From the IMG/VR virus record IMGVR_UViG_3300017971_000186: DNA of 64,000 bases; one strand, written 5' to 3'. This DNA is from a virus. Taxonomy: Duplodnaviria; Heunggongvirae; Uroviricota; Caudoviricetes. The position numbers were made by a program, and so were the translations under genes. The notes beneath the pieces are model-generated. The model saw only the letters and a program-made list of their open reading frames with translations. It was not told the origin of the DNA and ran no database searches. Positions 1,292 through 41,892 of this stretch are shown piece by piece. Positions within the stretch are counted from its first letter, which is position 1; the number at the start of each line of letters is the position of its first letter.

Positions 1292-1891
1292 ATGGATGGT
1301 TTTTTTACAGGAATCGGTAGCCGTAATACTCCAGAAAAATATTTAAATATTCTTGAAAATGTTAGCAGATTTATTGTAGATACCTACAAATTGAAATTAC
1401 GTAGTGGGCACGCTGTAGGAGCCGATAGAGCCTGTGAAAAGGGTGCAAACGGTTTTGCCGATATCTACCTACCTTGGAAAACTTATGGGATTAGACCCTA
1501 TAAGAATGATCCAGGGATGGAAGTTATCGGCAATGCTATTATTCCTGAACGAGAAAAAGAAATAGCTGAATTTATGTGCGATCTTGTTGCCAGAAAACCT
1601 TATCAAGAAATGGAACGTGGTGTGCAATTATTAATGGAACGTAATGTAAATCAGATTATTGGACATACAGATCCCGTACATGAATTAAGCCGAATCGTAT
1701 TATGTTATAGCCCAGATATAGGAGGGACAAGTTACGCGACAGCTCTAGCGAGACACTTTGATATTCATATTACAAATATTTTAAATTTAAATTTAAGTGA
1801 AGTAATAGAAGAAGTGGATTCAGTTATACCGTCTACTTCAAGAATAAAATTAACAAAAGCTGAAATACTAGAAGGAATTTACAATTTATGA
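1292..1891 (+). CDS. DprA/Smf-like (SLOG Rossmann-fold) DNA-processing protein
   Basis: N-terminal 'TGIGSRNTP' followed by 'SGHAVGADRACEKGA' resembles the DprA signatures 'VGSRxxS' and 'SGxAxGIDxxAHxxAL'. Later 'ERNVNQIIGHTD' resembles the 'RNRIISGLS' region. GAGGT RBS. Confidence 0.5.
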   Translation: MDGFFTGIGSRNTPEKYLNILENVSRFIVDTYKLKLRSGHAVGADRACEKGANGFADIYLPWKTYGIRPYKNDPGMEVIGNAIIPEREKEIAEFMCDLVARKPYQEMERGVQLLMERNVNQIIGHTDPVHELSRIVLCYSPDIGGTSYATALARHFDIHITNILNLNLSEVIEEVDSVIPSTSRIKLTKAEILEGIYNL

Positions 1892-2961
1892 CTGAACCAA
1901 TGATCACTAACCATATTATACGTTTTGGGGATTCTAGGGATAACTTTCCACTAAAGAGCAATAGTGTTGATTTAATAATTACTTCTCCTCCATACCCTAT
2001 GATAGAAATGTGGGATATGCTGTTCTTTGATTTTCTGGATATCAAACCAGATAAAGAAATGAAAACAAATGCACTTTTTGAAGCTATGCATCAAGAGCTA
2101 GATAAAGTATGGTCAGAATGTTATCGGGTACTAAAACCCGGTGGCTTTGCTTGCCTCAATATCGGAGATGCTGTTCGAACATTTTATAAAACTTTTCAAT
2201 TATTCCCAAATCATGCCAGAGTTATGGATTTCTGTATGGATATAGGACTTATTCCCCTTCCATTAATCCTATGGAGAAAACCAACAAATGCCCCGAATAA
2301 ATTCATGGGTTCTGGTATGCTTCCCGCAGGGGCTTATGTAACCCTGGAAAATGAATACATACTCATATTTAGAAAAATGGGTAAAAGAACCTTTCTCACT
2401 CCTGAGGATAAACTTAGAAGAAAACAAAGTGCTTTCTTCTGGGAAGAAAGGAATCAATGGTTCTCTGATACTTGGAGTTTTAAAGGTACAAAGCAAAAAC
2501 TTAATCATAAAAATATTGAGCGAAGTGCTGCCTTTCCTTTTGAATTACCATACCGATTAATTAATATGTATTCCTTGAAAGGAGATGTGATATTAGATCC
2601 ATTTCTCGGTACCGGTACAACCTCACTAGCTGCTATGGCATCTGGTAGAAATAGTATAGGTATTGAATATAATAATGATTTTAAAGAAATTATTGAAAAT
2701 AATCTTACCAATAATATTGATTTCATGAACGGGTATATAAAAGAAAGACTCAATAATCATTTTACCTATACAGAAACAAATGGTATAGACAATTTTAATT
2801 ACCATAATAAGAGCCATAACTGCCCGGTAAAAACAAATCAAGAGATTGAAATACAAATAGATCAAATAAAAGAGATATTACTAGGTAATTCTAATGCTGA
2901 TAACACACTAATTTTTAATACTGAATATAACAATACATTAATTCAACAGGACAAAGAATAA
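1888..2961 (+). CDS. beta-class amino-DNA methyltransferase (N4-cytosine or N6-adenine)
   Basis: Catalytic motif IV 'DLIITSPPY' is near the N-terminus. The AdoMet motif I 'ILDPFLGTGTTSLAA' lies about 200 aa later. The order IV then I is typical of the beta class. Confidence 0.85.
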   Translation: MTEPMITNHIIRFGDSRDNFPLKSNSVDLIITSPPYPMIEMWDMLFFDFLDIKPDKEMKTNALFEAMHQELDKVWSECYRVLKPGGFACLNIGDAVRTFYKTFQLFPNHARVMDFCMDIGLIPLPLILWRKPTNAPNKFMGSGMLPAGAYVTLENEYILIFRKMGKRTFLTPEDKLRRKQSAFFWEERNQWFSDTWSFKGTKQKLNHKNIERSAAFPFELPYRLINMYSLKGDVILDPFLGTGTTSLAAMASGRNSIGIEYNNDFKEIIENNLTNNIDFMNGYIKERLNNHFTYTETNGIDNFNYHNKSHNCPVKTNQEIEIQIDQIKEILLGNSNADNTLIFNTEYNNTLIQQDKE

Positions 2962-12651: not shown

Positions 12652-13200
12652 ATGGTAGCTTTAAAAATCAAGGTCACAAATATCAAATGTAATGATCCCC
12701 AGGATCCCCGAAAAGATGAACTTTATTTCATTACTGCTGTTAATCAAAAATGCATCGTAAGTCAAACTATTCGAGGTATAAAACGTGGGGCATGTCTTGA
12801 TTTAGATGAAGTCATTTTTGATAGCTATGTTGAAAAAGATACACCAATTATTATTACTTGTATGGAACAAAGAGGACTTAAAGATAATACTTTAACAGCA
12901 GATTTGTTAACCAATCTTGCTGATAAAGGTTTAAAAATAGCTAAGAGTAAACTTAAAATGGCCAATTCAGATTCGAATGATATCTGGAAACAAGTCGGGG
13001 AATATTTATTATCTAATGCTGTTTCAATAATTAAAGTCATGTTCAGAGATACTCCTTTAATGACAAAAGTAATCACCGAACCTTATTCAGAAGATATTGA
13101 ATACCCTATTACCTATGTTATGAAAGGTAAGAGTGATGAACGTCCTACTTATGACTATGAAATTCTATTATCTATAGAGATGGAAAAGAAAAATGATTAA
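12652..13200 (+). CDS. hypothetical protein
   Basis: AAAAGGAGAATAATT RBS. 182 aa. Confidence 0.45.
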   Translation: MVALKIKVTNIKCNDPQDPRKDELYFITAVNQKCIVSQTIRGIKRGACLDLDEVIFDSYVEKDTPIIITCMEQRGLKDNTLTADLLTNLADKGLKIAKSKLKMANSDSNDIWKQVGEYLLSNAVSIIKVMFRDTPLMTKVITEPYSEDIEYPITYVMKGKSDERPTYDYEILLSIEMEKKND

Positions 13201-13837
13201 CCTAAATGCAATAAAAGTTATGGTGGATTTTGAGAAATATTCATACCGTAAAATAAATAGAAGGGATGACGGTTTAATCGAAGTCTTTGATTTCTCCAAT
13301 TTAAAACTAATAATAATTGAAGAAAAAGGCTTTTATGTTAAATTTCATATGGATGATATAAAAGATGAAAAAGATATTCCCTGGGATATATTACACGAAT
13401 TTCAAAAATATTTTAATAATACCAACATCGAACTTTTAAATATACTCTGTCAAACAAGTAAAAGATTCGATTTTGAATTTGATTTCTTCAATATAGAAGC
13501 TGACCCTGTCTCTTCTGAAGAATATGAAAAAACGGGAAAATACTATAAATGGCCCTATCTTCAGTTCGACTTTCGATTAAATCAAATATTTTCAATAGAG
13601 GAATTTCGTGAACAATTAAATAAAATATATAATACATACCAGGTCTACGACCGGGACTGGCCCGAAATAAAAATATTCTTTAAAAAGTTTACAGAAGCTA
13701 ATATTTCTAAAACTTTTAAAATGGTAAAAGAATTAATAGAGATAAATAATGAAATAGTAGAAGATATGGAACTTGCCAAAAGGATACTTTTTACAGCATC
13801 TAAAAAGGGTTGGTTCGAACTATTAAAGGAAATATGA
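13193..13837 (+). CDS. hypothetical protein
   Basis: 214 aa. Overlaps the upstream stop. Confidence 0.45.
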   Translation: MINLNAIKVMVDFEKYSYRKINRRDDGLIEVFDFSNLKLIIIEEKGFYVKFHMDDIKDEKDIPWDILHEFQKYFNNTNIELLNILCQTSKRFDFEFDFFNIEADPVSSEEYEKTGKYYKWPYLQFDFRLNQIFSIEEFREQLNKIYNTYQVYDRDWPEIKIFFKKFTEANISKTFKMVKELIEINNEIVEDMELAKRILFTASKKGWFELLKEI

Positions 13838-14361
13838 TGGGTGAATGGATAGCAAAATTTGGCCTCCCTTTAGCATTTGCAATTAGTTTCTGGTTTATAT
13901 TAAGAGCTACTAAAAATATCACGAAAGCCTATAAACAGATGATTGAGATATATAAAAAAATGGAATCTATATCTGATCGAATAGGGCATCTTTATACTCT
14001 TACAAGAATCCTACATAACGGATTATGTGACCCTTTACACAAAATGATCTTTGCTAAAATTTATGAAACAGACCCTAAAAAATGCCCTAAGAATCCCTAT
14101 GAAAACTTTAATGTGTTTAAAGAAGTTATTTTGGAGAACTATCAAATTACTCTTGGTAAATTAGAAGAACTTAAAAAACAAGTAAAAGAGGAACCCAAAA
14201 CCATAGAAAAAATCGATAAATATATTAATGAAATTAATAATGTAGTCAACTTGTTAAGCACTATTGATGAAAAAAGTTCAAAAGATCATATCAACAATAT
14301 CATGTATGAAGTAAGTGCTACCATGATGAAAATATTAAGGGTCAATTTTGATGAAGTTTAA
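13810..14361 (+). CDS. hypothetical protein with N-terminal TM helix
   Basis: 183 aa. Hydrophobic N-terminus. Confidence 0.4.
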   Translation: MVRTIKGNMMGEWIAKFGLPLAFAISFWFILRATKNITKAYKQMIEIYKKMESISDRIGHLYTLTRILHNGLCDPLHKMIFAKIYETDPKKCPKNPYENFNVFKEVILENYQITLGKLEELKKQVKEEPKTIEKIDKYINEINNVVNLLSTIDEKSSKDHINNIMYEVSATMMKILRVNFDEV

Positions 14362-14767
14362 TATTAATGACATTGCCACTATACGCCATACTTTCACCGA
14401 ACATGAAGTTCTTTATTATAGTGGACTCATACATGATGATAATCCGATTCACACTGACAAAAAATATGCAGAAAAGTCTATTTTCGGGAGACCTGTTGTC
14501 CCTGGAATGTTTGCTGCCAGCTTCTTTTCCGGATTAATCGGGAGCAAATTACCAGGCAAAGGTTCTATTTATTTAGGCCAAAATTTAAATTTTTTAAAAC
14601 CCGTATTTATAGGTGAACAAGTATTATTTGTAGTCAAAATTATACATATACGAAAAGATAAACCAATTATTACATTAAATACATATTGTATTAATGATAA
14701 TAAAAGTAATACAGGGACCATACTTATTAAAGGTGAAGCTATTGTTAAAGCACCAAAGGAGGAATAA
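14348..14767 (+). CDS. MaoC-like (R)-hydratase/dehydratase hotdog-fold protein
   Basis: 'YSGLIHDDNPIHTDKKYAEKSIFGRPVVPGMFAASFFSGLIG' matches the MaoC dehydratase motif (D.NPIH.D...A....FG..I.HG). Confidence 0.7.
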   Translation: MMKFNINDIATIRHTFTEHEVLYYSGLIHDDNPIHTDKKYAEKSIFGRPVVPGMFAASFFSGLIGSKLPGKGSIYLGQNLNFLKPVFIGEQVLFVVKIIHIRKDKPIITLNTYCINDNKSNTGTILIKGEAIVKAPKEE

Positions 14768-15204
14768 TGTTAATAACTGATTTTGAAGATGGCGGATTTC
14801 CTATCTCTATCCATACACCTATTATTTGTACTGTATTAAGAGAAGATAACGATGACCCTCTTATGAGTGAATCAATAATGGCCTATAATCGTTATGAATT
14901 GAAGAAAATAATAACTACTCGTAAAATAGTTTACCTTTTAGGAATCTGGCCTGGTAAGAGAGTTACGGATGGATATCCTTTAAAACCTGAAAAATATAAA
15001 GATTTCCCAGTACCACCTGAAAGGTATAAAAATATTGATAGTGCTATTGATATTATCATTATGATGGATAAAGATCAATTTTCAAAAATAATATATAAGC
15101 CAGGACCACGCAGTGAAGACCATGTTCTTATAGAATCAGATGATTTTAAATTATATGAATATGTAAGAAAAGCAGGACTAAAATATAAAACAGTATTTGA
15201 ATGA
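14767..15204 (+). CDS. hypothetical protein
   Basis: AAAGGAGGAATA RBS. 145 aa. Confidence 0.4.
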   Translation: MLITDFEDGGFPISIHTPIICTVLREDNDDPLMSESIMAYNRYELKKIITTRKIVYLLGIWPGKRVTDGYPLKPEKYKDFPVPPERYKNIDSAIDIIIMMDKDQFSKIIYKPGPRSEDHVLIESDDFKLYEYVRKAGLKYKTVFE

Positions 15205-15221
15205 TGTAGCAAAGGAAACAC

Positions 15222-16403
15222 GTGGATTTATTTGGCATTCTCTTAATAATTGCACATCTACTCATTTTCGTTGTTTTTGTTAATAGATATATCTTCGGAA
15301 GATTTTATCTTAATTTAAATAAAAAAGCTTTATCTGAGATCAAAGAAAATTTTCATCCTCCCATAACTATTATTGTTCCCTTGTACAATGAAGGTGGTAG
15401 TATAGCCAAAACTATCCGTAGCTTCTCTGAACAAGTTTATCCAAAAGAGAATTTACATGTCATGGTTATTGATGATTGTTCTACCGATAATAGTTATGAA
15501 ATAGCCAAAAAAGAAATTGTTAAATACCCTAATGCACAAATATTTCGAAATAAAAATAATGTAGGAAAAAGAAAAAGTATTATCAATGCTGTACGTCGTT
15601 GTAAAACAGAATTTGTTATTTCAATTGATTCTGATGTAATTTTAGATAAACATGCAATTTCTCGCCTTATTAGACGTTTCACTAAAGAAGACATAGTTGC
15701 AGTTGGTGGGAGAGTCGATGTGGTTAACAACAATGTTAATTGGCTCACCCAAATGCAGACAGTAAAATATTATTACAGTTATAAACATTTAAAAAATTTA
15801 GAGAGATCTTTTTTCAGTGTTATGTGCTTATCAGGATGTTTAACAGCTTATCGAACTAAAGTATTAATTGAACTTGAAGATATTTTACTAAAAAGGAATT
15901 TCTTCGGGCTTCCAATTAAATACGGTGAAGATCGATTCTTAACAAGACAAATAATTAAAGCTGGCTATAAAACCTTTCTTACTCTTGATGCTCATTCATA
16001 TACAAAAGTCCCTGAGAACTTAGATCAATATATACTGCAACAATTACGATGGAGAAGATCTAATTTAATCGATTTTTTCTGCGGGTTATCTCATATATGG
16101 AAAATCAATCCAATTGTAAGTATCCATTATCTTGGACTTTTTGCTATGCTTTTATCCTATCCCATGATTCTTATACAGACATCCATGTCCGGATATTTCT
16201 TTGAATTTGCAATGTTTCATATTTTATTACTATTCATATTCGTAATTATTTATACAATAGACACACGTAATCTTCCCATAAATAAAAAAGCTAAATTTCC
16301 TTTAGCTTTTCTCACAATTGCTATAATAATGCCAGTCACATATTTGATTTTAACACCACTAGCTCTTTTTACTCTTGATTCCGGGAGCTGGGAGACTCGA
16401 TAG
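15222..16403 (+). CDS. Processive GT2 beta-glycosyltransferase, NodC/HasA/chitin-synthase-like. Probable GTG start.
   Basis: Motifs: 'IVPLYNEGG...VMVIDDCSTDNS', 'NVGKRKSII...ISIDSDVIL', 'YGEDRFLT' and 'QQLRWRRS' (QxxRW). The C-terminal TM helices run near-colinear with NodC as recalled. Confidence 0.85.
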   Translation: MDLFGILLIIAHLLIFVVFVNRYIFGRFYLNLNKKALSEIKENFHPPITIIVPLYNEGGSIAKTIRSFSEQVYPKENLHVMVIDDCSTDNSYEIAKKEIVKYPNAQIFRNKNNVGKRKSIINAVRRCKTEFVISIDSDVILDKHAISRLIRRFTKEDIVAVGGRVDVVNNNVNWLTQMQTVKYYYSYKHLKNLERSFFSVMCLSGCLTAYRTKVLIELEDILLKRNFFGLPIKYGEDRFLTRQIIKAGYKTFLTLDAHSYTKVPENLDQYILQQLRWRRSNLIDFFCGLSHIWKINPIVSIHYLGLFAMLLSYPMILIQTSMSGYFFEFAMFHILLLFIFVIIYTIDTRNLPINKKAKFPLAFLTIAIIMPVTYLILTPLALFTLDSGSWETR

Positions 16404-16433
16404 AAAGGATAGAAAATTTAATAACTTGACCTT

Positions 16434-17534
16434 ATGAATATTAAAACAAGCTTAAACTGGTTATTTCTTTCTATATATAAAATAATCGGATTCATAACTT
16501 TGGCAGCTATCTGTGTAGGAATACTTGGATACCTTACAGGATCTCTTTTTTATATTATTGATAAAAGATGGGTGATTCCTATTATTTTATCCCCGCACTC
16601 TGAACAGGTAGTTAAATTAAACTCCCAACATATACAACAGAAGTTTCTCTATAATAAAACAATGGTAGAAAAACTCAGACTGCAGTCTAAAATAAGACTG
16701 CTCAAAGAAGAAGTCAAAGTAAAAAAAGATCTGCAAAAAAGGTTTGAACTGGCTTTTAAAAGCGATCTTAAAATGATGAGACAGAAATTAGATCTGATTT
16801 CTGAAGCCCTTAAAGAACATGATGATATCGAATTCACCGCGAATGGAGCTTATTCAAGATCAGAGTTAGCTAATATCAGTTCTTTAATTTCTGCTGGTAT
16901 CATAGATAGACAGACATATAATCGCAATAAATTCAGTATAGATCAGAATATCAGGAATTTAGCGACATTTAAACAAAAAGAAGAACAATTAAAATTAGAA
17001 AAAAATAGATTAATAAAAAGCATCTCTTCATTAGAATCATTCAATAATAAAATAAAAAAAACAGATACAAAATATAAAGCAGAACCCATTTATGATGTCC
17101 TCATTATAGAACAGGAATATCTTATATTAAATCAAGATGTCAATGGGTTGGAAAATGAAATAGATATGTTAAATTTAGAATCAGAGATAATTGATAGCTC
17201 TCTTGAAGGTTACAATGAAATCTGTGAAAAATTAGAGCAATCCCCATATTTTAAAGCTATAAATAAGAGTGTAATTGTAGCATTTGCTCCATATTCAAAT
17301 ATTCGAAATATAAAAGTCAACGATCCTATCTATGGGTGTTACCTGGGTTTATTTCTATGTAAAAAAATCGCTGTTGTTAAAGAAGTCCTTGAAGGAGAAA
17401 TTATTGCAAAACATCCTGTATTCAACAAAGAATTAAGAGGTATGATGGTTATTATTGATATGAAAGATAAGGACATGGATTGGGCTAAAGCAAAATCATT
17501 ACATGTTGGAACGAAGCCTTTTTTCATTCTGTAA
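16434..17534 (+). CDS. N-terminal TM anchor plus long coiled-coil plus C-terminal beta region (membrane-fusion/HlyD- or PCP-like architecture)
   Basis: TM near residues 10-40, extended heptad Lys/Glu-rich middle, beta-rich C-terminus. Architecture only, no diagnostic motif. Confidence 0.35.
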   Translation: MNIKTSLNWLFLSIYKIIGFITLAAICVGILGYLTGSLFYIIDKRWVIPIILSPHSEQVVKLNSQHIQQKFLYNKTMVEKLRLQSKIRLLKEEVKVKKDLQKRFELAFKSDLKMMRQKLDLISEALKEHDDIEFTANGAYSRSELANISSLISAGIIDRQTYNRNKFSIDQNIRNLATFKQKEEQLKLEKNRLIKSISSLESFNNKIKKTDTKYKAEPIYDVLIIEQEYLILNQDVNGLENEIDMLNLESEIIDSSLEGYNEICEKLEQSPYFKAINKSVIVAFAPYSNIRNIKVNDPIYGCYLGLFLCKKIAVVKEVLEGEIIAKHPVFNKELRGMMVIIDMKDKDMDWAKAKSLHVGTKPFFIL

Positions 17535-17543
17535 GGATATAAG

Positions 17544-18566
17544 ATGTTAATAAAAGTACAGATACTTCTAATAACTTTTTTAATCTCGGTCTACAGTGAA
17601 TTACCTTATTCTAGATGGCTTACTGCCACAAAGAATTCAGAAAGAATCTTGTTATTAACCCCAGAACTATTGATTCATGGTGTAAATACAGATAGCCAAG
17701 AAGGAAATATAGAATTAACGTATAATTTTATCAATCTATATAAAGGCATTATAATTGGAAAGAGAACTGAAGCCGAATGCCATTTATATGAAGTCTGTCA
17801 AGAACTCGATAAAGTACTCACTATTGGTACAGATATAGGGAAACTTGCTCTTCTTGAAACAAAACTCAAAAATATTATTCAATTAAAAGATACAGTCACC
17901 AAAAAATTAATTTCCCTTGAATTCCTATTAAAGAAAGAATTAGTTACACTAGATGTTTTATATAGCTTTGAGAATAAACTCGAAAAACTGAACCTTATCG
18001 AACTTGAGACCAATTTAGAAATAGAAAGACTCAGGCAATTACCAAAACCGCGTAATATAAAAATAGAAAGATTAGTGACACATTTCATTATCTATGATAG
18101 AGAAGTAGAGATTCATTCTGCAAACCTAAGAAAATCCTATGCCTGGGCAATTACTACTTCAGGAGGAGTAAATGTACAATATGAGAACAAAGAAATAATC
18201 ATTAATCCTCTAGGTCAATTAATGATTCATTTTAAATTTGGACGTTTCTTTCAGAATAAATATAATAGAGAAGCTATTATTTATCGAGATGACTGGAGAA
18301 AAGAAAATTTTCAATCATATCTTGTTCGAATTGAACAACTGAAAGATAAATATAAAAAAATACAGGTAATATTAAAAAAACGATTAATAGAGTTAGAAAA
18401 AAATGTAACTATACTAAAAAATAGAATTGAAAATCTTAATACCATAACAAATATAAAAGTACTAAATTATAAAGAGCTATTAAATATTGATCTAGCTATT
18501 TTCTTAAATGAAAAGAACTATATCTCTTCTTTAGCCGAGATTTTAATGAATATAAATCATCTATAA
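17544..18566 (+). CDS. secreted coiled-coil protein
   Basis: Signal-peptide-like N-terminus 'MLIKVQILLITFLISVYSE', then long coiled-coil segments. Confidence 0.4.
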   Translation: MLIKVQILLITFLISVYSELPYSRWLTATKNSERILLLTPELLIHGVNTDSQEGNIELTYNFINLYKGIIIGKRTEAECHLYEVCQELDKVLTIGTDIGKLALLETKLKNIIQLKDTVTKKLISLEFLLKKELVTLDVLYSFENKLEKLNLIELETNLEIERLRQLPKPRNIKIERLVTHFIIYDREVEIHSANLRKSYAWAITTSGGVNVQYENKEIIINPLGQLMIHFKFGRFFQNKYNREAIIYRDDWRKENFQSYLVRIEQLKDKYKKIQVILKKRLIELEKNVTILKNRIENLNTITNIKVLNYKELLNIDLAIFLNEKNYISSLAEILMNINHL

Positions 18567-18579
18567 AAAGGAGTATTAA

Positions 18580-21500
18580 GTGTTGAAATATCTATTAATC
18601 ATAATTATTAACCTGTTCCTCACAGGGTTGGCTATTCAAGCGGATGAAATATCATATCTTTTAAAAAATGTTGCTATCGATGGAGATGGTTGGTACAGAA
18701 GTACAGACTGGAAAGATGGATTCGGTTTAGACGAAGAATTTTATTTCAGTACTGAAAATGGTGATACTGTATACTCTGTTGGCTATGGGCAAGTCGATAT
18801 GGCTTTAACAGATAGTCTAAGAAAAAAGTTAGGATATGAATATCTTGTAGTGATTGTTAAACACTTCTATGATAAAAATGATACTGAATCATATTACTAT
18901 GGTCTTTACAATCTATTAAAGGACATATTTGTCACTGAGGGCCAATGGATTGAGAAAGGCCACCCCATTGCTACTGCAGATGGATCTAAAATCAGATTCA
19001 GTACCATAGGATTAGATTTTCCCGTAATTATTCAACTTCAAGATACTTTAATAATACTCCCTAATCCTGGTTTCAAATCACCCCGATCCTGGTTAAATAC
19101 TTCAGTATTCTATTCCACTCTGTATAAATATGATTTCGGGCCTTCCTGCAATTATTCCAGTGAACAATGGGATACTACTAGCACCAGTTTAATAAGCCCT
19201 GAATTAACACAGGCAAATTCATCTGTTATTTATTTCTATATGAAAAAATTACCCTCAACCGATACCCTTTATCTCCATGACGGTCAACTCGCCGATGTAA
19301 TGGCTCTTGTTAAAGATAAAAATGATGTATGGAACTATTTACCTATTCTTAATGCTAATGCTGACTACAGTTTTAGAGAAGGAGATATTTCCATAGATGA
19401 ATATAACGTATATAAAGTAGACTGTTTAGGAATGGAAGTAAAACAAGTCTCTCTTGACGTATTAGAGAAGTATCAAGTCAGATGGATTAAAATCTTGATG
19501 CCAGCAAAAAGAGATACAGTTAATTTTTATGAAATAGATACAACTGATTGTGATAGACAAGCCTTTAAAGAAGAATGGAATAATAGCGATAATTTAAGTA
19601 ATTGGAAAAGCCTTCGATCCTCTATTTCATATGACATAGATAAAGGAAACCCTGGAGCCTCATTAAAAGTGAAATCAAACAATATCAGACATGATGAAAT
19701 CGGAGTATCTGTCGATAAAAGATATACAGGTAATTTAGCTTGTAATAATATCACCGGAATCAATTTCGACATCAAAACACCTGATATGAATTTTTTCGAA
19801 GTCAGATTAAGATGCAATATTAATAAAGCATGGAAAAAAATATTTACAAGAGAAGATTTTAAAATTAACTCCTGGTCCCACTTAAGTGTCAAATTAGATC
19901 CTACTTGGTCAGATAGTGAAGCAATTGCCAATGGCTGGGAACAGGAATCTCCTCTCAGAGTTATAAGTTTCGCTGAAAATCTCAATTTAATTTCAGCTTT
20001 AGAAATATATGGTATAACCCACTTTTGCCGAGATAGTCTTCTTCAATTTAATATTGATAATTTTCAAGTATGTTATGATGCTACTTGTACCCAGACAGAT
20101 ATTTCCCAAATATACCCTAAAAATTTAATAGTTATTCAAGCTGATAGAGATTCAGCTATGCTTCGTTGGAATAGTATCCCTACAAGCCAATATATAGTAT
20201 ATAAAGACACAAGTCCTATTGATACTATATCTGATACATTCTATGTAGATCGAAATATAAATCAATCGCTAATTTCAACTTATAGTGTAATTGGATTAGA
20301 CAACGGGTCTATGTCTGGGATCTCTGATATAATTACAATGGATTTTTACAAAGATATAAGACAATATGGCGATTGGAGAAATTACACTTCAGCTCGGGGA
20401 ACCAAATATACTATCCTTCAAAGTGATACCGATAAAGTAAATATTGGAAATACTTTTATGGATATGTTAATCAGATTAGAAGGGAATCTCAATGTAGGAT
20501 GGAAACTATTCATGAATGACTCTTTTAACCTCGATATGCATGCCCCTTATTTAGATGCCCATTATAGATTAAAATCATGGGGACATTACAGAATCACTCA
20601 TTATTTGGAAACAAAAGACAATGACACAATCCTTCTAGTTTTTGATACTCGGCATCGGGATAAATATATCAGTAAAAATGGTGAATTGCGCTATGGTATA
20701 GGCCCACATAATGATGGATCATGGAAAAGAGTAAATCATCATTTACAACACTCTTTAAATGAAATTGCTGTAGCATTAAGAAAAGTTCCCAAAAGAATCA
20801 CCCGACTTATTGAAATTAGATTTAAATGTGATACCGTTGAAATGGAAATACCAACATTTTTTCATGACTCTACTAATGCTATGAGTGATAAATTTTATAT
20901 TCGAGATACCAGCATAGTATTAGCTAATTGGGACATAAGAGGCAATGATTCAAATGCCATCGTAACAAAATTCTATGAATATGAAGATAGTACCTATTGT
21001 ACAAGACTACTCACCACTAATGGAATGGCCACAAGTTTCAAACTCAAATTTGATGAACCTAATGTGTCTCAATTCTTTTCTTATATTGGTATTAAAAATT
21101 ATACCAGTGATTTTAGAATGTATTACGAAGTATTAGTTGTAGATACTGTAAATGATACTGTTATTGACTACGATATTGCTTATGATACCAGAAACTGGAC
21201 CGAAAAAAGAATAGCCCATTATGTTTCAGGCCGAGATGCCCGTATCGGGATAGGTGATGGCCGATTTGGAGTATATTGGCATAGTTATTATGGCTTTTTA
21301 CAAGAAGATCTCGATAGTGTTTGTTCAGCCGAAGGTATACCCAAAATGGAAATTATTGGTGTATTAGGAATATCTTTCAGAATAGAACGAGAAATACTCC
21401 TTTATGGTTTGCATTTAGGCGACACAAAAAAAGATGTATTATGGACAGATCGAACTCCTTACACATCTGTTAACCATCCTGACCATTACAAGGTATGGAA

Positions 21501-22710
21501 AATACTGGGAACTAAACAAGGAACTTCCTTAAATACAGTTGGAGTCTTCACTGAATTTATCAGTGATAGTGGTATGGCTACTTTGTATAAATTCAAATTT
21601 CCATTACCCAATACTCACCAATTTTATGGATTCACAAATATTACATCATTCGATCCTTTTAGACTCTTTGTAGAAGTAATAACTAATAAAAACACAATAT
21701 GCCGTATTGCTTATGATACTCGGTATGATAAAGGATTTAAAAAAATGTATAGTAATGGAAAAGAAGCTCGGGTTGGCATCGGTGCTGTCCCAGATACTCT
21801 TATCCATGACTACAACTTTGATCTTAAAAAAGATTTAATTGATGTATCAACTACCTCAGGAATAGATACATTATATCCTGTAGCCGTTACTGGAATATAT
21901 CTTAGAACTGGGAATAAAACTCGTATGGCTCCTTTTGAATTAAGATCAAATCCACAACCCGATTATTCCCCACCACAACCAAACCCTTTATCCTGGGAAG
22001 TTGCTCCGGTAATTATGGGACATAATTCTATAATGATGGAAGCTGTTGAAGCCACAGATGAGAATGGAGTTGAATATCATTTTGAATGTATTGGAGGACC
22101 ATGCCATAATAGCAAATGGCAAGAAAGCCCTATTTACGTTGATACTGGAATTTATAATCCTAATCTCTGTACTTATAGGGTAAGAGCAATAGATAACAGT
22201 CCTAGAAGAGCTTATAATATTACTCATTGGTCTGTGCCGGGATCTGCCGTGGCTCATGTTGCTCCAACAATAGGGTACACAACCATTTTTCCGAAGAAAG
22301 TAACAACTACCCCAAGACGTGCGATGCCTTTCACAATGCCATATAATGACTATATAGACAGTATAGCCATTTACCATGGTGGTGGTACCGGCAACCTTAT
22401 TTTGGCTGTATATGATGGAGATAACGTTCCTGAGAACTTATTAGGCATCACTCCTCAAACAAATGTAAATTCAAATGAAGGATGGCAAACAATCAGTTTA
22501 ACAACACCGGTAAATATTTTAGCAGGAACTAAGATCTGGTTAGCATGGGTATTTGAAAATGCTACAGAAGTACGGTATGAAGAACATGATTCAGGAAGAG
22601 CTTTGGTTAATGGATCATCGTGGTCTGATGGAATGCCAAATCACTTCGGAAGTAGTACTGTATCAAATTATGTCTACTCAATATATGCCATTTATAGGAA
22701 TTCACCATAA
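18580..22710 (+). CDS. Giant secreted multidomain protein (1376 aa) with FN3-like domain and internal repeats. GTG/TTG start after AAAAGGAG.
   Basis: Signal peptide 'MLKYLLIIIINLFLTGLAIQA'. FN3-like segment around 20080-20330 (LRWNSIP...YIVYKD). The repeated block 'AYDTR...RIGIG/RVGIG' occurs twice. Confidence 0.5.
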   Translation: MLKYLLIIIINLFLTGLAIQADEISYLLKNVAIDGDGWYRSTDWKDGFGLDEEFYFSTENGDTVYSVGYGQVDMALTDSLRKKLGYEYLVVIVKHFYDKNDTESYYYGLYNLLKDIFVTEGQWIEKGHPIATADGSKIRFSTIGLDFPVIIQLQDTLIILPNPGFKSPRSWLNTSVFYSTLYKYDFGPSCNYSSEQWDTTSTSLISPELTQANSSVIYFYMKKLPSTDTLYLHDGQLADVMALVKDKNDVWNYLPILNANADYSFREGDISIDEYNVYKVDCLGMEVKQVSLDVLEKYQVRWIKILMPAKRDTVNFYEIDTTDCDRQAFKEEWNNSDNLSNWKSLRSSISYDIDKGNPGASLKVKSNNIRHDEIGVSVDKRYTGNLACNNITGINFDIKTPDMNFFEVRLRCNINKAWKKIFTREDFKINSWSHLSVKLDPTWSDSEAIANGWEQESPLRVISFAENLNLISALEIYGITHFCRDSLLQFNIDNFQVCYDATCTQTDISQIYPKNLIVIQADRDSAMLRWNSIPTSQYIVYKDTSPIDTISDTFYVDRNINQSLISTYSVIGLDNGSMSGISDIITMDFYKDIRQYGDWRNYTSARGTKYTILQSDTDKVNIGNTFMDMLIRLEGNLNVGWKLFMNDSFNLDMHAPYLDAHYRLKSWGHYRITHYLETKDNDTILLVFDTRHRDKYISKNGELRYGIGPHNDGSWKRVNHHLQHSLNEIAVALRKVPKRITRLIEIRFKCDTVEMEIPTFFHDSTNAMSDKFYIRDTSIVLANWDIRGNDSNAIVTKFYEYEDSTYCTRLLTTNGMATSFKLKFDEPNVSQFFSYIGIKNYTSDFRMYYEVLVVDTVNDTVIDYDIAYDTRNWTEKRIAHYVSGRDARIGIGDGRFGVYWHSYYGFLQEDLDSVCSAEGIPKMEIIGVLGISFRIEREILLYGLHLGDTKKDVLWTDRTPYTSVNHPDHYKVWKILGTKQGTSLNTVGVFTEFISDSGMATLYKFKFPLPNTHQFYGFTNITSFDPFRLFVEVITNKNTICRIAYDTRYDKGFKKMYSNGKEARVGIGAVPDTLIHDYNFDLKKDLIDVSTTSGIDTLYPVAVTGIYLRTGNKTRMAPFELRSNPQPDYSPPQPNPLSWEVAPVIMGHNSIMMEAVEATDENGVEYHFECIGGPCHNSKWQESPIYVDTGIYNPNLCTYRVRAIDNSPRRAYNITHWSVPGSAVAHVAPTIGYTTIFPKKVTTTPRRAMPFTMPYNDYIDSIAIYHGGGTGNLILAVYDGDNVPENLLGITPQTNVNSNEGWQTISLTTPVNILAGTKIWLAWVFENATEVRYEEHDSGRALVNGSSWSDGMPNHFGSSTVSNYVYSIYAIYRNSP

Positions 22711-22763
22711 ATTAATATGCTACAAATTTAGTATTGATATTAGTTTCGAGAAATTTCGTTGAA

Positions 22764-22783
22764 CCCTGAAAGATATTTCAGGG
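22764..22783. terminator. candidate bidirectional hairpin terminator between convergent gene blocks
   Basis: Perfect inverted repeat CCCTGAAA-GATA-TTTCAGGG. The following T-tract is weak. Confidence 0.3.
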
Positions 22784-22875
22784 TCATCGGGGTTTATACT
22801 CATTGTCTCTTCAATATCATCACATTCTTTTATAATAGTATCAAAAGATTCCAGAATACTTTTTTCCCATAGAAA

Positions 22876-23064
22876 TTATTCTTTTATTTCTGATTTCTTA
22901 GATTCATTTAACCTTTCCATCTGTCTTTCTAACATTATTACTCTACTTTCAAGAGTATATAACATTTGGGCCAGACAACCTATGGAAGTATAAATTCCTC
23001 GAATAAAATAAAGACCAAGCATAAAAATAATAACAAAACCAATATATAAAATGATGTAGAGCAT
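22876..23064 (-). CDS. small TM plus coiled-coil protein
   Basis: 62-aa ORF at the distal end of the minus-strand operon. Confidence 0.25.
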   Translation of the reverse strand: MLYIILYIGFVIIFMLGLYFIRGIYTSIGCLAQMLYTLESRVIMLERQMERLNESKKSEIKE

Positions 23065-23151
23065 AACATTTAGAGAGTTGTTTAATAGTTAAAATCACTG
23101 ATGTCTTATTATTTAAATTATGCATTATTCGAAAATTTATTTAAATTTATT

Positions 23152-23331
23152 TTTTTAATAATAATCCGTGTCTACTATGAAAGATTCATCATACCCATCC
23201 CCATAGGTTTTCAAACATCCATTGGAATCCATAAAAGTACCATTTACTGTATATGTAACATTACCATCAGTAGCACTCATTCCATCAAAATCACCATTTA
23301 AAGCATCACATTCTTTTTTATTATCTGTCAT
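23152..23331 (-). CDS. small hypothetical protein (59 aa)
   Basis: 'MTDNKKECDALNGDFDGMSATDGNV...'. ATGA overlap with the stop of the upstream gene. Below the track cutoff. Confidence 0.3.
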
Positions 23332-41130: not shown

Positions 41131-41892
41131 TCAACTTTGGATTGACACTTTGGACACCGTAGCTCGATCATACTTTATACCGTATTTAATCATGGCTTTT
41201 GCTAATTTGCTTTTCATAGCACTTATTGTAGTTGTTGATACTCCATAAATCCGAGCGATCATTTTATTGTTGTATCCCTTATACAGAAGTCGGAAAAGGT
41301 CCAATAGAGTACACCCGTTTTCTTCTATCTCTGTGATTAAATCCTTGATTTCATTAAATTCTTCACCGATTTTACCACGCTTTTGAAGACGTTCCAATAT
41401 TTTTAAAAAATTGAGAGAAGTATTTTTATGTTGTCTCTTTCGTAACTTAAATTTTATGTTCTGAGGTGATTTTGAAAACTGACGCTCAAAATCGCTGAAT
41501 TCTTCCATAAAAGAATTATTGTTAAAATATTGATTGTCGTAGAAATCATCTGAAACATCATAATAAGCGGGAATAAGATCGAACTCGTTAGTATCATCAG
41601 TAGGAGAAGGGGTTAAAACACGGCACCGACGAAATCGACCATCGTGACTTTTCACTCTGGTGATTATAAAATTACGGATAATTTTAAAAAGGTAAGAAGA
41701 TATTTGTACATTATAACTGGGATCATAAGCTTCAATGATTTTCTTTTTTGTTAAGAACTTCACATAAAGCTCTTGGACAACATCATCAGGTGAACCAGGA
41801 TAATCAAGATACTCGCACTGTTTTCGGACTAGAGCACGAAATTCTGCATCATTTTTTTGGGCAAAGACAGCAATATCATTAGTAGGTAGCAT
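41131..41892 (-). CDS. sigma-70 family (ECF-like) RNA polymerase sigma factor
   Basis: Region 2-like 'VQELYVKFLTKK...YLFKIIRNFIITR'. Region 4 HTH-like 'MIARIYGVSTTTISAMKSKLAKAM'. Confidence 0.55.
   Translation of the reverse strand: MLPTNDIAVFAQKNDAEFRALVRKQCEYLDYPGSPDDVVQELYVKFLTKKKIIEAYDPSYNVQISSYLFKIIRNFIITRVKSHDGRFRRCRVLTPSPTDDTNEFDLIPAYYDVSDDFYDNQYFNNNSFMEEFSDFERQFSKSPQNIKFKLRKRQHKNTSLNFLKILERLQKRGKIGEEFNEIKDLITEIEENGCTLLDLFRLLYKGYNNKMIARIYGVSTTTISAMKSKLAKAMIKYGIKYDRATVSKVSIQS

What the first reader, a model, noticed from the sequence alone, without database searches (positions are those of the whole stretch)
15222..16403. Phage-like element encodes a NodC/HasA-type processive polysaccharide synthase
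The 393-aa membrane protein has the full signature set of processive GT2 synthases (chitin-oligosaccharide synthase NodC, hyaluronan synthase, cellulose synthase core): 'VIDDCSTDNS', 'DSD', 'GEDRFLT' and 'QQLRWRRS' (QxxRW). It also has C-terminal TM helices and an N-terminal TM, and it aligns near-colinearly with NodC as I recall it. Virus-encoded synthases of this class are classically known from chloroviruses (HAS, CHS). They would be unusual in a bacterial virus, where one might suggest production of a GlcNAc-type polymer for surface modification, superinfection exclusion or biofilm. That role is a hypothesis only.
Basis: partly seen in the sequence, partly recalled or inferred. Interest (0 to 1): 0.65.

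Follow-up and report, generated by a model that had tools for sequence, protein, structure and literature searches.

The report
Huge phage carries polysaccharide synthesis-export machine
A giant bacterial virus encodes a hyaluronan/chitin-synthase-like enzyme together with its own periplasmic adaptor and TolC-like outer-membrane channel, which looks like a complete kit for making a sugar polymer and pushing it out of an infected Gram-negative cell; the viral reference sets searched hold nothing like it.

Summary
ORF 15222-16403 (+) encodes a 393-aa membrane GT2 with intact DDCS, DSD, GEDR and QQLRW motifs and a C-terminal WETR. It is colinear with NodC (173 bits, far below the 550-bit equivalog cut-off; 28% identity), and its closest solved structures are hyaluronan synthases.

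The next gene (16434-17534) folds like an EmrA/HlyD periplasmic adaptor. The third (17544-18566) is a confident TolC-family outer-membrane factor. The triad occurs together in 67 of 81 bacterial loci, mostly Myxococcota. PIG-L or CE4 deacetylases lie next to it in 44 of 85 loci, which points to an N-acetylhexosamine polymer.

The window has phage replication and baseplate genes and belongs to a roughly 470-kb contig. All three genes share the same nearest bacterial clade, have the phage's 30% GC, and are under purifying selection (dN/dS 0.11-0.19). PHROGs, GenBank phages, IMG/VR and BFVD hold no counterpart.

Best reading: a phage-borne, self-contained synthase-adaptor-channel system that secretes a GlcNAc-type glycan. 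The product and the biological role (surface masking or superinfection exclusion) are inferred.

The parts
15222..16403 (+). Inner-membrane GT2 synthase, 393 aa, HAS/NodC-like. It has one N-terminal TM helix, a cytoplasmic GT-A domain and three C-terminal hydrophobic helices.
15471..15482 (+). DDCS (aa 84-87), the nucleotide-sugar binding Asp motif. It is invariant in the family.
   Evidence: invariant columns D84, D85, C86, S87.
15627..15635 (+). DSD (aa 136-138), the DxD metal and UDP-binding motif.
   Evidence: invariant D136, S137, D138; aligned to DSD of HAS and of NodC.
15924..15935 (+). GEDR (aa 235-238). This motif holds the catalytic base and is the equivalent of TED in BcsA and GDDR in HAS.
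16038..16052 (+). QQLRW (aa 273-277), the QxxRW acceptor-binding signature of processive GT2 synthases.
   Evidence: motif definition from PMC4132801.
16389..16400 (+). WETR (aa 390-393), at the very C-terminus. It is the family-specific variant of the WGTR/WGTSGR motif of HAS. The phage copies stop right after it, while bacterial copies carry a low-complexity tail.
   Evidence: aligned to 'WGTRG' of CvHAS and 'WGTSGR' of XlHAS1; aligned to 'WLSR' of SmNodC.
16434..17534 (+). Periplasmic adaptor (membrane-fusion-protein-like), 366 aa. It has an N-terminal TM anchor, a beta strand, a very long alpha-helical hairpin and a C-terminal beta domain.
   Evidence: AF2 pLDDT 82.8. Foldseek top and only significant hit is EmrA 4tko at 3.8e-6, followed by EmrAB-TolC, HlyD and MacA. 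It is adjacent to the GT2 in 81 of 85 loci. It is 38% identical to the bacterial orthologue, E 2e-93.
17544..18566 (+). TolC-family outer-membrane factor, compact at 340 aa, with a signal peptide. It has two repeats, each a beta-hairpin followed by long helices.
   Evidence: AF2 pLDDT 94.2, pTM 0.83. The top 37 Foldseek PDB hits are all TolC/OprM/CusC/SilC/VceC/CmeC/MtrE, from 6e-10 to 1.5e-6. Six of 30 family members hit Pfam OEP, best 5.7e-8. It is 28-30% identical to bacterial orthologues, E about 1e-40.
14767..15204 (+). 145-aa protein of unknown function immediately upstream. It travels with the cassette only in the phage-clade contigs.
   Evidence: 46% identical in L001/L002; absent from bacterial loci; no Pfam or PHROG hit; dN/dS 0.28.
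18580..22710 (+). 1376-aa secreted protein immediately downstream, the last gene of the + strand block. It is conserved next to the cassette only in the phage clade, and a functional link is not shown.
   Evidence: Signal-peptide-like N-terminus. Weak Peptidase_M23 (2e-5, below cut-off) and DUF4082. 43% identical start in L001/L002. No PDB or PHROG hit.

Best explanation
The window comes from a huge (about 470 kb) phage of a Gram-negative host. The phage carries a complete, co-transcribed, three-component polysaccharide synthesis and export system.

Proposed mechanism (inferred): the inner-membrane GT2 (15222-16403) polymerises sugars from UDP-sugars on its cytoplasmic face and threads the chain through the membrane, as hyaluronan and chitin synthases do. 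The membrane-anchored adaptor (16434-17534) bridges the periplasm with its long helical hairpin. The TolC-like trimeric channel (17544-18566) takes the chain across the outer membrane. The polymer most likely contains beta-linked N-acetylhexosamine (chitin-like, PNAG-like or glycosaminoglycan-like).

The cassette was taken as one block from a bacterial lineage related to certain Myxococcota, has since adopted the phage's base composition, and is kept by selection.

What is shown here: the homology, intact motifs, folds of the partners, synteny, distribution and purifying selection. What is inferred: the physical coupling of the three proteins, polymer rather than oligomer, the sugar identity, and the role during infection. 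The role I consider most likely is coating the infected cell to mask receptors or exclude competing phages, as has been proposed for the chlorovirus HAS and chitin synthase; I rate that at roughly 0.3.
For: GT2 identity and intact catalytic set.

Adaptor fold.

TolC fold with high confidence, and Pfam OEP in relatives.

Tight operon: gaps of 30, 9 and 13 bases, and no + strand terminator.

The triad is the conserved unit: the GT2-adaptor pair is present in 81 of 85 loci, and all three genes in 67 of 81 unique loci.

Product hint: a PIG-L GlcNAc de-N-acetylase is adjacent in 38 loci and a CE4 polysaccharide deacetylase in 6 more, giving 44 of 85 loci. The closest characterised enzymes all use UDP-GlcNAc (NodC, HAS, Chitin_synth_2).

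En-bloc origin: all three genes have the same nearest bacterial relatives.

Maintenance in the phage lineage: dN/dS is 0.11, 0.16 and 0.19 against the 69%, 59% and 48% identical copies in L001. The region's GC is 0.30, like its surroundings.

The same gene order appears in an independently assembled contig from another run, and four index blocks hold carrier contigs in the 0.2-1 Mb class.

Phage context; contig size.

Precedent for GT2 + MFP + TolC export: BgsBA-TolC (PMC13438883) and the XcsAB-TolC model (PMC12430437).
Against: There is no biochemical evidence.

The synthase has only the minimal NodC-like membrane set (three TM helices plus an interface helix). For NodC this was argued not to form a channel and to limit products to about five residues (PMC4132801). 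The column aligned with NodC's ruler Arg-349 is Arg in the window and in 17 of 24 relatives, so an oligosaccharide product is not excluded.

The adaptor assignment rests on one significant Foldseek hit with a low TM-score (0.21) and no Pfam HlyD match.

The window's own p340 has no Pfam OEP hit, and its family profile finds no TolC in the PDB by sequence.

The phage cassette carries no deacetylase, sugar-nucleotide supply gene or c-di-GMP receptor.

No capsid or terminase gene lies within the 64-kb window, so the phage assignment is strong but indirect.
Confidence: 0.7

Rival explanations
1. It is a NodC-type oligosaccharide synthase. It would make short chito-oligosaccharides (a signal or primer) and not a polymer, and the adaptor and TolC-like proteins would export these small molecules or serve another purpose.
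For: NodC is the best NCBIfam hit and is colinear over the full length. Identity is 28% and the minimal TM layout is the same. The residue aligned to ruler Arg-349 is Arg in the window (ruler concept from PMC4132801).
Against: The score is 173.5 bits against a 550-bit equivalog cut-off. No NodA/NodB-like or NodIJ-like genes are nearby. The ruler column varies across the family (W, L, Y, Q in 7 of 24) and lies in a gapped, low-confidence part of the alignment. The obligate pairing with an adaptor and OMF, with no separate inner-membrane transporter, argues that the synthase itself feeds the conduit. From my own knowledge, streptococcal HAS has a similar minimal size and makes MDa polymers.
Confidence: 0.12
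2. It is a true hyaluronan (or other glycosaminoglycan) synthase that alternates GlcNAc with GlcA. That would make it the bacterial-virus counterpart of the chlorovirus HAS.
For: The best solved-structure relatives are HAS enzymes (4e-34 and 1e-25), aligned to the end of the WGTR-type motif. Some bacterial loci carry a heparinase II/III-CE4 fusion and a sulfatase next to the cassette.
Against: No UDP-glucose dehydrogenase was seen in the cassette or in the neighbouring genes scanned. The motif is WETR, not WGTR, throughout the family. The commonest neighbours are de-N-acetylases, which fits a poly-HexNAc better. The NodC profile scores higher than any other NCBIfam model.
Confidence: 0.12
3. 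The cassette is bacterial, not viral. Either the contig is a bacterial or plasmid replicon (or a chimeric assembly), or the genes are inert, recently captured passenger DNA.
For: No capsid, portal or terminase gene lies in the window. More than 2,000 homologues are bacterial. IMG/VR has none.
Against: The cassette's GC (0.30) matches the window, whereas its bacterial relatives have 0.46-0.76. It is flanked on both sides by genes found only in the phage-clade contigs. The window holds phage-type replication, baseplate and tail-fibre genes. The same locus was assembled independently in other runs. Purifying selection acts between two diverged phage-clade copies.
Confidence: 0.06

Closest known systems
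Class I hyaluronan synthases (Chlorella virus CvHAS, PDB 7sp6-7spa; Xenopus HAS1, PDB 8smm)
   Same: A membrane-integrated GT2 with the DxD, G(E/D)DR and QxxRW motifs and a C-terminal W-x-T-R motif. These are the best solved-structure matches. CvHAS is also virus-encoded.
   Different: This protein is much smaller (393 aa against 570-600) with fewer TM helices. The motif is WETR, not WGTR. The match covers mainly residues 112-394. The product is unknown. It is coupled to an adaptor and an outer-membrane channel, which HAS enzymes lack.
NodC chitooligosaccharide synthase (TIGR04242; S. meliloti NodC)
   Same: Same size class, colinear over the full length, the same motifs and the same membrane layout of one plus three hydrophobic helices.
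   Different: It scores 173.5 bits against a 550-bit cut-off and is 28% identical. There is no nodABC or nodIJ context. It is paired with export partners. NodC makes capped-length oligomers that stay in the cytoplasm for further modification (PMC4132801).
Tripartite synthase-dependent exopolysaccharide systems: BgsA/BgsB/TolC (mixed-linkage beta-glucan, Sinorhizobium) and the XcsA/XcsB/TolC cellulose model of cyanobacteria
   Same: [quoted passage not shown]
   Different: Those synthases are BcsA-like glucan synthases with c-di-GMP-binding domains, and they borrow the cell's general TolC, which is encoded elsewhere. Here the synthase is HAS/NodC-like, no c-di-GMP module was detected, and a dedicated compact OMF is encoded in the same operon. 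The whole set also sits on a phage.
Phage GtrB-like O-antigen conversion glycosyltransferases (phrog_841 and related)
   Same: A phage-encoded GT2 that changes the host surface. This is the best PHROG match.
   Different: The match covers only the generic GT-A half (residues 48-167). From my own knowledge, GtrB is a non-processive polyprenyl-phosphate glucosyltransferase without the QxxRW motif or a C-terminal channel region.

Membership tests
Membrane-embedded processive GT2 beta-glycan synthases (HAS/NodC/CHS/BcsA superfamily) | GT-A catalytic domain with the D, DxD, (T/G)ED(R) and QxxRW motifs | tested here: met
   DDCS 84-87, DSD 136-138, GEDR 235-238 and QQLRW 273-277 are all invariant in 24 sequences. 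They align to the same motifs of HAS and NodC.
Membrane-embedded processive GT2 beta-glycan synthases (HAS/NodC/CHS/BcsA superfamily) | Catalytic domain flanked by transmembrane helices | tested here: met
   Hydropathy finds helices at 2-20, 298-316, 325-343 and 359-377. Hydropathy was the only topology evidence; no experiment or dedicated predictor was used.
Membrane-embedded processive GT2 beta-glycan synthases (HAS/NodC/CHS/BcsA superfamily) | Processive synthesis and translocation of a polymer | not testable with these tools
   This needs an enzyme assay or product analysis.
HAS/NodC/chitin-synthase subgroup | C-terminal W-G-T-R type motif after the last membrane helix | tested here: met
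   WETR 390-393 is invariant in the family. It aligns with WGTRG of CvHAS and WGTSGR of XlHAS1. Gly is replaced by Glu in every member, so this is a family-specific variant.
NodC (TIGR04242 equivalog) | Score at or above the curated cut-off of 550 bits | tested here: not met
   173.5 bits.
NodC (TIGR04242 equivalog) | nod gene context (nodA, nodB, nodIJ) | tested here: not met
   The neighbours are a MaoC-like protein, unknowns, an adaptor and an OMF in the window. No such context was seen in the bacterial loci.
NodC (TIGR04242 equivalog) | Molecular-ruler residues (SmNodC Leu-19 and Arg-349) that close the product site | tested here: inconclusive
   The aligned columns hold F and R in the window. 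Across the family they hold F/L/A/V and R (17), W (4), L, Y, Q. The region is gapped.
Class I hyaluronan synthase | Closest sequence relationship, and a supply of UDP-GlcA (hasB/ugd) in the locus | tested here: inconclusive
   HAS is the best PDB relative (4e-34), but no UDP-glucose dehydrogenase was seen in the window cassette or the sampled bacterial loci. The product is untested.
PgaC/IcaA PNAG synthase (TIGR03937) | Score at or above the curated cut-off of 422.3 bits | tested here: not met
   93.8 bits, covering residues 31-318 only.
Tripartite synthase-adaptor-OMF secretion (Bgs/Xcs type) | Membrane-fusion/periplasmic adaptor protein genetically coupled to the synthase | tested here: met
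   It is adjacent in 81 of 85 loci. The fold is TM, beta strand, long hairpin and beta domain. The top Foldseek hit is EmrA at 3.8e-6, with HlyD and MacA in the list. No Pfam HlyD hit was found at sequence level.
Tripartite synthase-adaptor-OMF secretion (Bgs/Xcs type) | TolC-type outer-membrane channel | tested here: met
   pLDDT is 94. All 37 hits at E <= 1.5e-6 are TolC-family proteins. Pfam OEP matches 6 of 30 relatives but not the window protein itself. All three genes occur together in 67 of 81 loci.
Tripartite synthase-adaptor-OMF secretion (Bgs/Xcs type) | Physical complex, and export that depends on all three parts | not testable with these tools
   This needs genetics, pull-downs or cryo-EM. 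No multimer prediction was available.
Huge (>=200 kb) phage | Genome of at least 200 kb with virion and phage replication genes | tested here: inconclusive
   The identical proteins lie on a 469,617-bp contig. Phage replication, baseplate and tail-fibre families are in the window. The polymerase is nearest to the 485-kb phage record LR745208. Capsid and terminase genes are not in the window, and the rest of the contig could not be read.

The most novel reading that the evidence does not exclude
A huge phage installs its own trans-envelope glycan-secretion machine in the host, made of a HAS/NodC-like synthase, a periplasmic adaptor and a phage-encoded TolC-like channel. It coats the infected cell with a chitin-like or glycosaminoglycan-like polymer. 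This would be the bacterial-virus counterpart of the chlorovirus hyaluronan and chitin synthases. By the viral references searched here, it would also be the first phage-encoded outer-membrane factor. In addition, the cassette defines an uncharacterised bacterial exopolysaccharide pathway in which synthase, adaptor and OMF share one operon. That would give direct genetic support to the still-debated tripartite model of synthase-dependent secretion.
Probability: 0.5. Interest if true: 0.82.

Novelty: new variant of a known kind. Interest (0 to 1): 0.72.

Why it matters
From my own knowledge, phages remodel host surfaces with single tailoring enzymes (Gtr, acetylases), and only giant algal viruses are known to make a whole extracellular polymer. 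A phage that carries synthase, adaptor and outer-membrane channel would change the host envelope without relying on the host's own export parts. This bears on superinfection exclusion, aggregation and biofilm formation, and on how long-cycle huge phages manage infected cells.

The cassette also exposes a widespread but undescribed bacterial system: 434 loci among 185,579 species genomes, mostly Myxococcota. In it the three parts are co-operonic. That is the genetic link missing from the cyanobacterial XcsAB-TolC model, and it is only indirect in the rhizobial Bgs system. Finally, a compact, portable three-gene module for secreting a GlcNAc-type polymer is of biotechnological interest.

Tried and rejected
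1. IMG/VR was scanned with single-protein peptides and then with family-conserved peptides. No relative was found either time.

2. The one JGI metagenome scan, run with a phage-clade alignment, found only bacterial-type or distant relatives. The best was 55% identical.

3. Exact-product look-ups for the GT2 and the adaptor found no record. The OMF look-up did work. No look-up returned more than a 23-kb contig, so the rest of the 470-kb contig could not be read.

4. Word-indexed protein searches for the adaptor returned only 3 and then 10 sequences, because of the coiled-coil composition.

5. Sequence-only searches for the partners were uninformative. The adaptor profile against the PDB gave only coiled-coil noise. 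The OMF-family profile against the PDB gave nothing. Only the fold comparisons resolved them.

6. The promoter scan was at chance level (76 sites found, 77.8 expected), so no promoter is claimed.

7. The 1376-aa downstream protein has no PDB or PHROG match, so its link to the cassette is left open.

8. The greedy ORF census in the high-GC loci produced several spurious antisense 'families' (clusters 3, 4, 7). I discarded them after reading the sequences.

9. The NodC molecular-ruler test was inconclusive.

10. Literature searches found no report of a phage-encoded HAS/NodC-type synthase or TolC-like protein, and no description of the myxobacterial triad. The library is incomplete, so this is absence of evidence only.
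Full report
**1. The observation**

ORF 15222-16403 (+; GTG start; 393 aa) exists as described, and all the quoted strings are in its translation. Pfam gives Glycos_transf_2 at 1.6e-31, Glyco_tranf_2_3 at 3.9e-28 and Chitin_synth_2 at 2.8e-17. In NCBIfam the best model by far is NodC (TIGR04242): 6.6e-51, 173.5 bits, residues 36-393 on model positions 38-394 of 395. PgaC/IcaA follows at 93.8 bits. Both are far below their equivalog cut-offs of 550 and 422 bits. Hydropathy shows one N-terminal and three C-terminal hydrophobic helices.

**2. What the enzyme is**

In a 24-sequence alignment, the following are invariant: DDCS (84-87), DSD (136-138), GEDR (235-238), QQLRW (273-277) and the terminal WETR (390-393). 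The other members of that alignment are 51-69% identical to the window protein.

The single sequence matches Chlorella-virus and vertebrate hyaluronan synthases at about 1e-19. The family profile matches Xenopus HAS1 at 4e-34 and CvHAS at 1e-25. Those alignments run through the HAS WGTSGR/WGTRG motif, which here reads WETRG. Chitin synthase (4e-10) and BcsA (2e-9, GT-A half only) are much weaker.

I fetched authentic S. meliloti NodC from pSymA. It aligns colinearly at 28% identity. NodC's 'molecular ruler' (Leu-19 and Arg-349; PMC4132801) maps to F and R in the window. That column varies in the family, though (R in 17, W in 4, and L, Y, Q once each), and it lies in a gapped region. Oligomer versus polymer therefore cannot be decided from sequence.

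The protein is a member of the HAS/NodC/CHS branch of membrane GT2 synthases. It is not NodC, not PgaC, and not demonstrably a HAS.

**3. The surroundings: a three-gene machine**

The genes from 12652 to 22710 form a tight + strand block. The gaps around the synthase are 30, 9 and 13 bases, and there is no + strand terminator. A 69%-identical synthase (P0002) lies on two short 30%-GC contigs with the same order: 145 aa, GT2, 362 aa, 338 aa, then a large protein.

In bacterial genomes the 52-56% identical synthases are also followed by Pfam-less proteins of about 367 aa and about 381 aa. These are true orthologues of the window's next two genes: 37-38% identity at E 2e-93 and 3e-91, and 28-30% identity at E 7e-40 and 1e-41.

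Across 85 fetched loci, tblastn finds the 366-aa partner beside the synthase in 81. With profile HMMs, all three genes are together in 67 of 81 unique loci. Most of the remainder are truncated contigs. There are two main layouts: co-directional, as in the window (31 loci), and a divergent adaptor-OMF pair upstream (30 loci).

**4. What the partners are**

Neither partner has a Pfam, NCBIfam or PHROG match.

The 366-aa protein was modelled with AlphaFold2 on a 10-sequence alignment, giving pLDDT 82.8. The model has a TM helix (4-42), a beta strand, helices spanning residues 57-268 that fold back as a long hairpin, and a C-terminal beta domain. Its only significant Foldseek PDB hit is the periplasmic adaptor EmrA (4tko, 3.8e-6, 341 columns). 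EmrAB-TolC, HlyD and MacA chains appear further down. TM-scores are low (about 0.2), as expected for long flexible hairpins. I read it as a membrane-fusion or periplasmic adaptor protein, with moderate confidence.

The 340-aa protein was modelled on a 30-sequence alignment (from the exhaustive HMMER search). The model is confident: pLDDT 94.2, pTM 0.83. It has a signal peptide and two repeats of a beta-hairpin plus long helices. All 37 Foldseek hits at E <= 1.5e-6 belong to the TolC, OprM, CusC, SilC, VceC, CmeC or MtrE family. Six of its 30 relatives independently match Pfam OEP, best 5.7e-8. It is a compact TolC-family outer-membrane factor.

**5. Mechanism**

The parts are an inner-membrane synthase, a membrane-anchored adaptor and an outer-membrane channel, with no other transporter conserved in the locus. 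This is the architecture proposed for two other systems: the rhizobial mixed-linkage glucan system BgsA/BgsB/TolC (PMC13438883) and the cyanobacterial XcsA/XcsB/TolC cellulose model (PMC12430437). In those systems TolC is encoded elsewhere, and the review notes that this weakens the cyanobacterial model. Here the channel is dedicated and co-operonic.

I therefore propose the following. The synthase polymerises and extrudes the chain. The adaptor's hairpin docks onto the OMF. The chain then leaves the cell through the TolC-like tunnel. The homology, folds and linkage are shown here. The physical coupling is inferred.

**6. The product**

The nearest characterised enzymes all use UDP-GlcNAc. In the bacterial loci, a PIG-L family GlcNAc de-N-acetylase lies directly beside the synthase in 38 loci (Pfam 9.3e-19 for the representative). 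A CE4 polysaccharide deacetylase is present in 6 others. That makes 44 of 85 loci, or 38 of the 65 loci that are at least 9 kb long. Two unrelated deacetylase families recruited to the same synthase point to an N-acetylhexosamine polymer that is partly deacetylated after synthesis.

A few loci add a heparinase II/III-CE4 fusion and a sulfatase, or C-type lectins. The phage cassette has no deacetylase. The sugar identity remains an inference, and hyaluronan-like or other products are not excluded.

**7. Is it really in a phage, and is it functional there?**

The window encodes the following:
- a family A DNA polymerase, an SNF2-type helicase and a DnaB-like helicase;
- primase and DprA-like proteins;
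- endonuclease VII;
- a sigma-like factor, a DNA methylase and a baseplate-wedge/tail-fibre-network protein;
- a protein with tail-fibre PHROG matches.

Most other ORFs match nothing. There are no tRNAs. The identical cassette proteins are recorded on a 469,617-bp contig. The polymerase's only near-full-length phage match is the 485-kb record LR745208. The same gene order occurs in an independently assembled contig from run SRR6963591, and four index blocks hold carrier contigs in the 0.2-1 Mb class.

The cassette's GC (0.30) equals its surroundings, whereas the bacterial relatives have 0.46-0.76. Neighbour-joining trees of each gene, and of the concatenate, place window plus L001 together. 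Their nearest relatives are the same bacterial clade in every tree: Myxococcota MAGs L003, L005 and L012, and the MAGs L007-L011. This fits one ancient en-bloc capture.

Between the two phage-clade copies, dN/dS is 0.11 for the synthase, 0.16 for the adaptor and 0.19 for the OMF. dS is near saturation, so these are rough values, but they clearly indicate purifying selection. No capsid or terminase gene lies inside the window, and this is the main gap in the phage assignment.

**8. Comparison with what is known, and novelty**

PHROGs has no full-length family for the synthase. Only GtrB-like families match, and only on the GT-A half. PHROGs has nothing for either partner. GenBank phages hold no close homologue of the synthase. 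The best are 25% identical, mostly in mislabelled bacterial contigs. GenBank phages have no match at all to either partner. IMG/VR has no relative. BFVD has no TolC-like fold, with zero hits at E <= 0.001. Literature searches found no description of such a phage system or of the bacterial triad.

The bacterial family is sizeable: more than 2,000 proteins at E <= 1e-10, and 434 loci among 185,579 species genomes. It is mostly in Myxococcota, including cultured Sorangium, Pyxidicoccus, Vitiosangium and Citreicoccus, with some Acidobacteriota.

I class the finding as a new variant of a known kind. It is a synthase-dependent tripartite secretion system, but with a HAS/NodC-type synthase and a dedicated compact OMF, and it is carried by a huge phage.

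**9. Biological role (inference only)**

Because the phage brings its own adaptor and outer-membrane channel, the host must be diderm. The phage also does not depend on host export components. By analogy with the chlorovirus HAS and chitin synthase (from my own knowledge), which cover infected algae with fibres, the most likely benefit is to mask receptors. That would exclude competing phages and keep progeny from adsorbing to cells that are already infected. Aggregation or biofilm formation, and protection of the infected cell during a long cycle, are alternatives. None could be tested here.

**10. Verdict**

Confidence in the molecular model is about 0.7 and interest is 0.72.

Noticed in passing
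window 30776-33217 (-): An 813-aa protein has Major Vault Protein shoulder (1.4e-23), Vault_3 repeat (3e-11) and SPFH/Band_7 (7e-5) domains. This is a vault-protein-like protein in a phage genome.
   Followed up: no
window 14348-14767 (+): A MaoC-like (R)-hydratase/dehydratase domain protein (Pfam 5.7e-16; NCBIfam enoyl-CoA hydratase subfamily 7.9e-27) lies in the same tight + strand block, two genes upstream of the synthase. It is also present on the independent contig L095. Any link to the glycan, such as acylation, is unknown.
   Followed up: partly
window 18580-22710 (+): A 1376-aa protein with a signal-peptide-like N-terminus has a sub-threshold Peptidase_M23 match (2e-5) and a weak DUF4082 match. 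It lies directly after the TolC-like gene, is conserved there only in the phage clade (43% identity in L001/L002), and has no PDB or PHROG match.
   Followed up: partly
window 14767-15204 (+): A 145-aa protein with no detectable family accompanies the cassette only in the phage-clade contigs (46% identity, dN/dS 0.28). It could be a phage-specific regulator or accessory subunit.
   Followed up: partly
window about 22700-23330: Gene orientation switches from + to - here and the cumulative GC skew peaks here. The cassette sits at the end of the + strand block. This could be a replication or transcription boundary.
   Followed up: no
window 42143-45931 (-): A 1262-aa protein has a family A DNA polymerase in its first 575 residues and a long C-terminal extension with a weak helicase PHROG match. 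The only phage record matching 86% of its length is the 485-kb LR745208, at 28% identity.
   Followed up: partly
window 34366-34935 and 34966-35625 (-): Two adjacent genes both match the same unknown-function family, phrog_24725 (about 1e-8). This looks like a tandem duplication.
   Followed up: no
window 17544-18566 (+), aa 23: The TolC-like family has two conserved cysteines (positions 23 and 79 in the window's numbering). The phage-clade copies keep Cys79 but have Ser at position 23, so a probable disulfide is lost.
   Followed up: no
L007, L008, L010, L011 (genome contigs): MAGs labelled 'uncultured Rickettsiales' carry the cassette at 63-69% GC and cluster with Myxococcota MAGs. The taxonomic label looks doubtful.
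   Followed up: no
L004/L005 12770-17359; L006 9249-10871; about 9 Kofleriaceae-type loci: Bacterial cassettes are variously followed by a CE4-heparinase II/III fusion plus a sulfatase, by a TIG-CE4 protein, or by C-type lectin-domain proteins. A Ser/Thr kinase recurs nearby in about 10 loci; I identified it by reading the sequence, without a profile search. These point to lineage-specific tailoring and binding of the polymer.
   Followed up: partly
window 41131-41892 (-), 1292-1891 (+), 1888-2961 (+): These encode a phage sigma-like factor (Sigma70_r2 plus a GerE-type HTH), a DprA-like recombination mediator and an N6/N4 DNA methylase.
   Followed up: no
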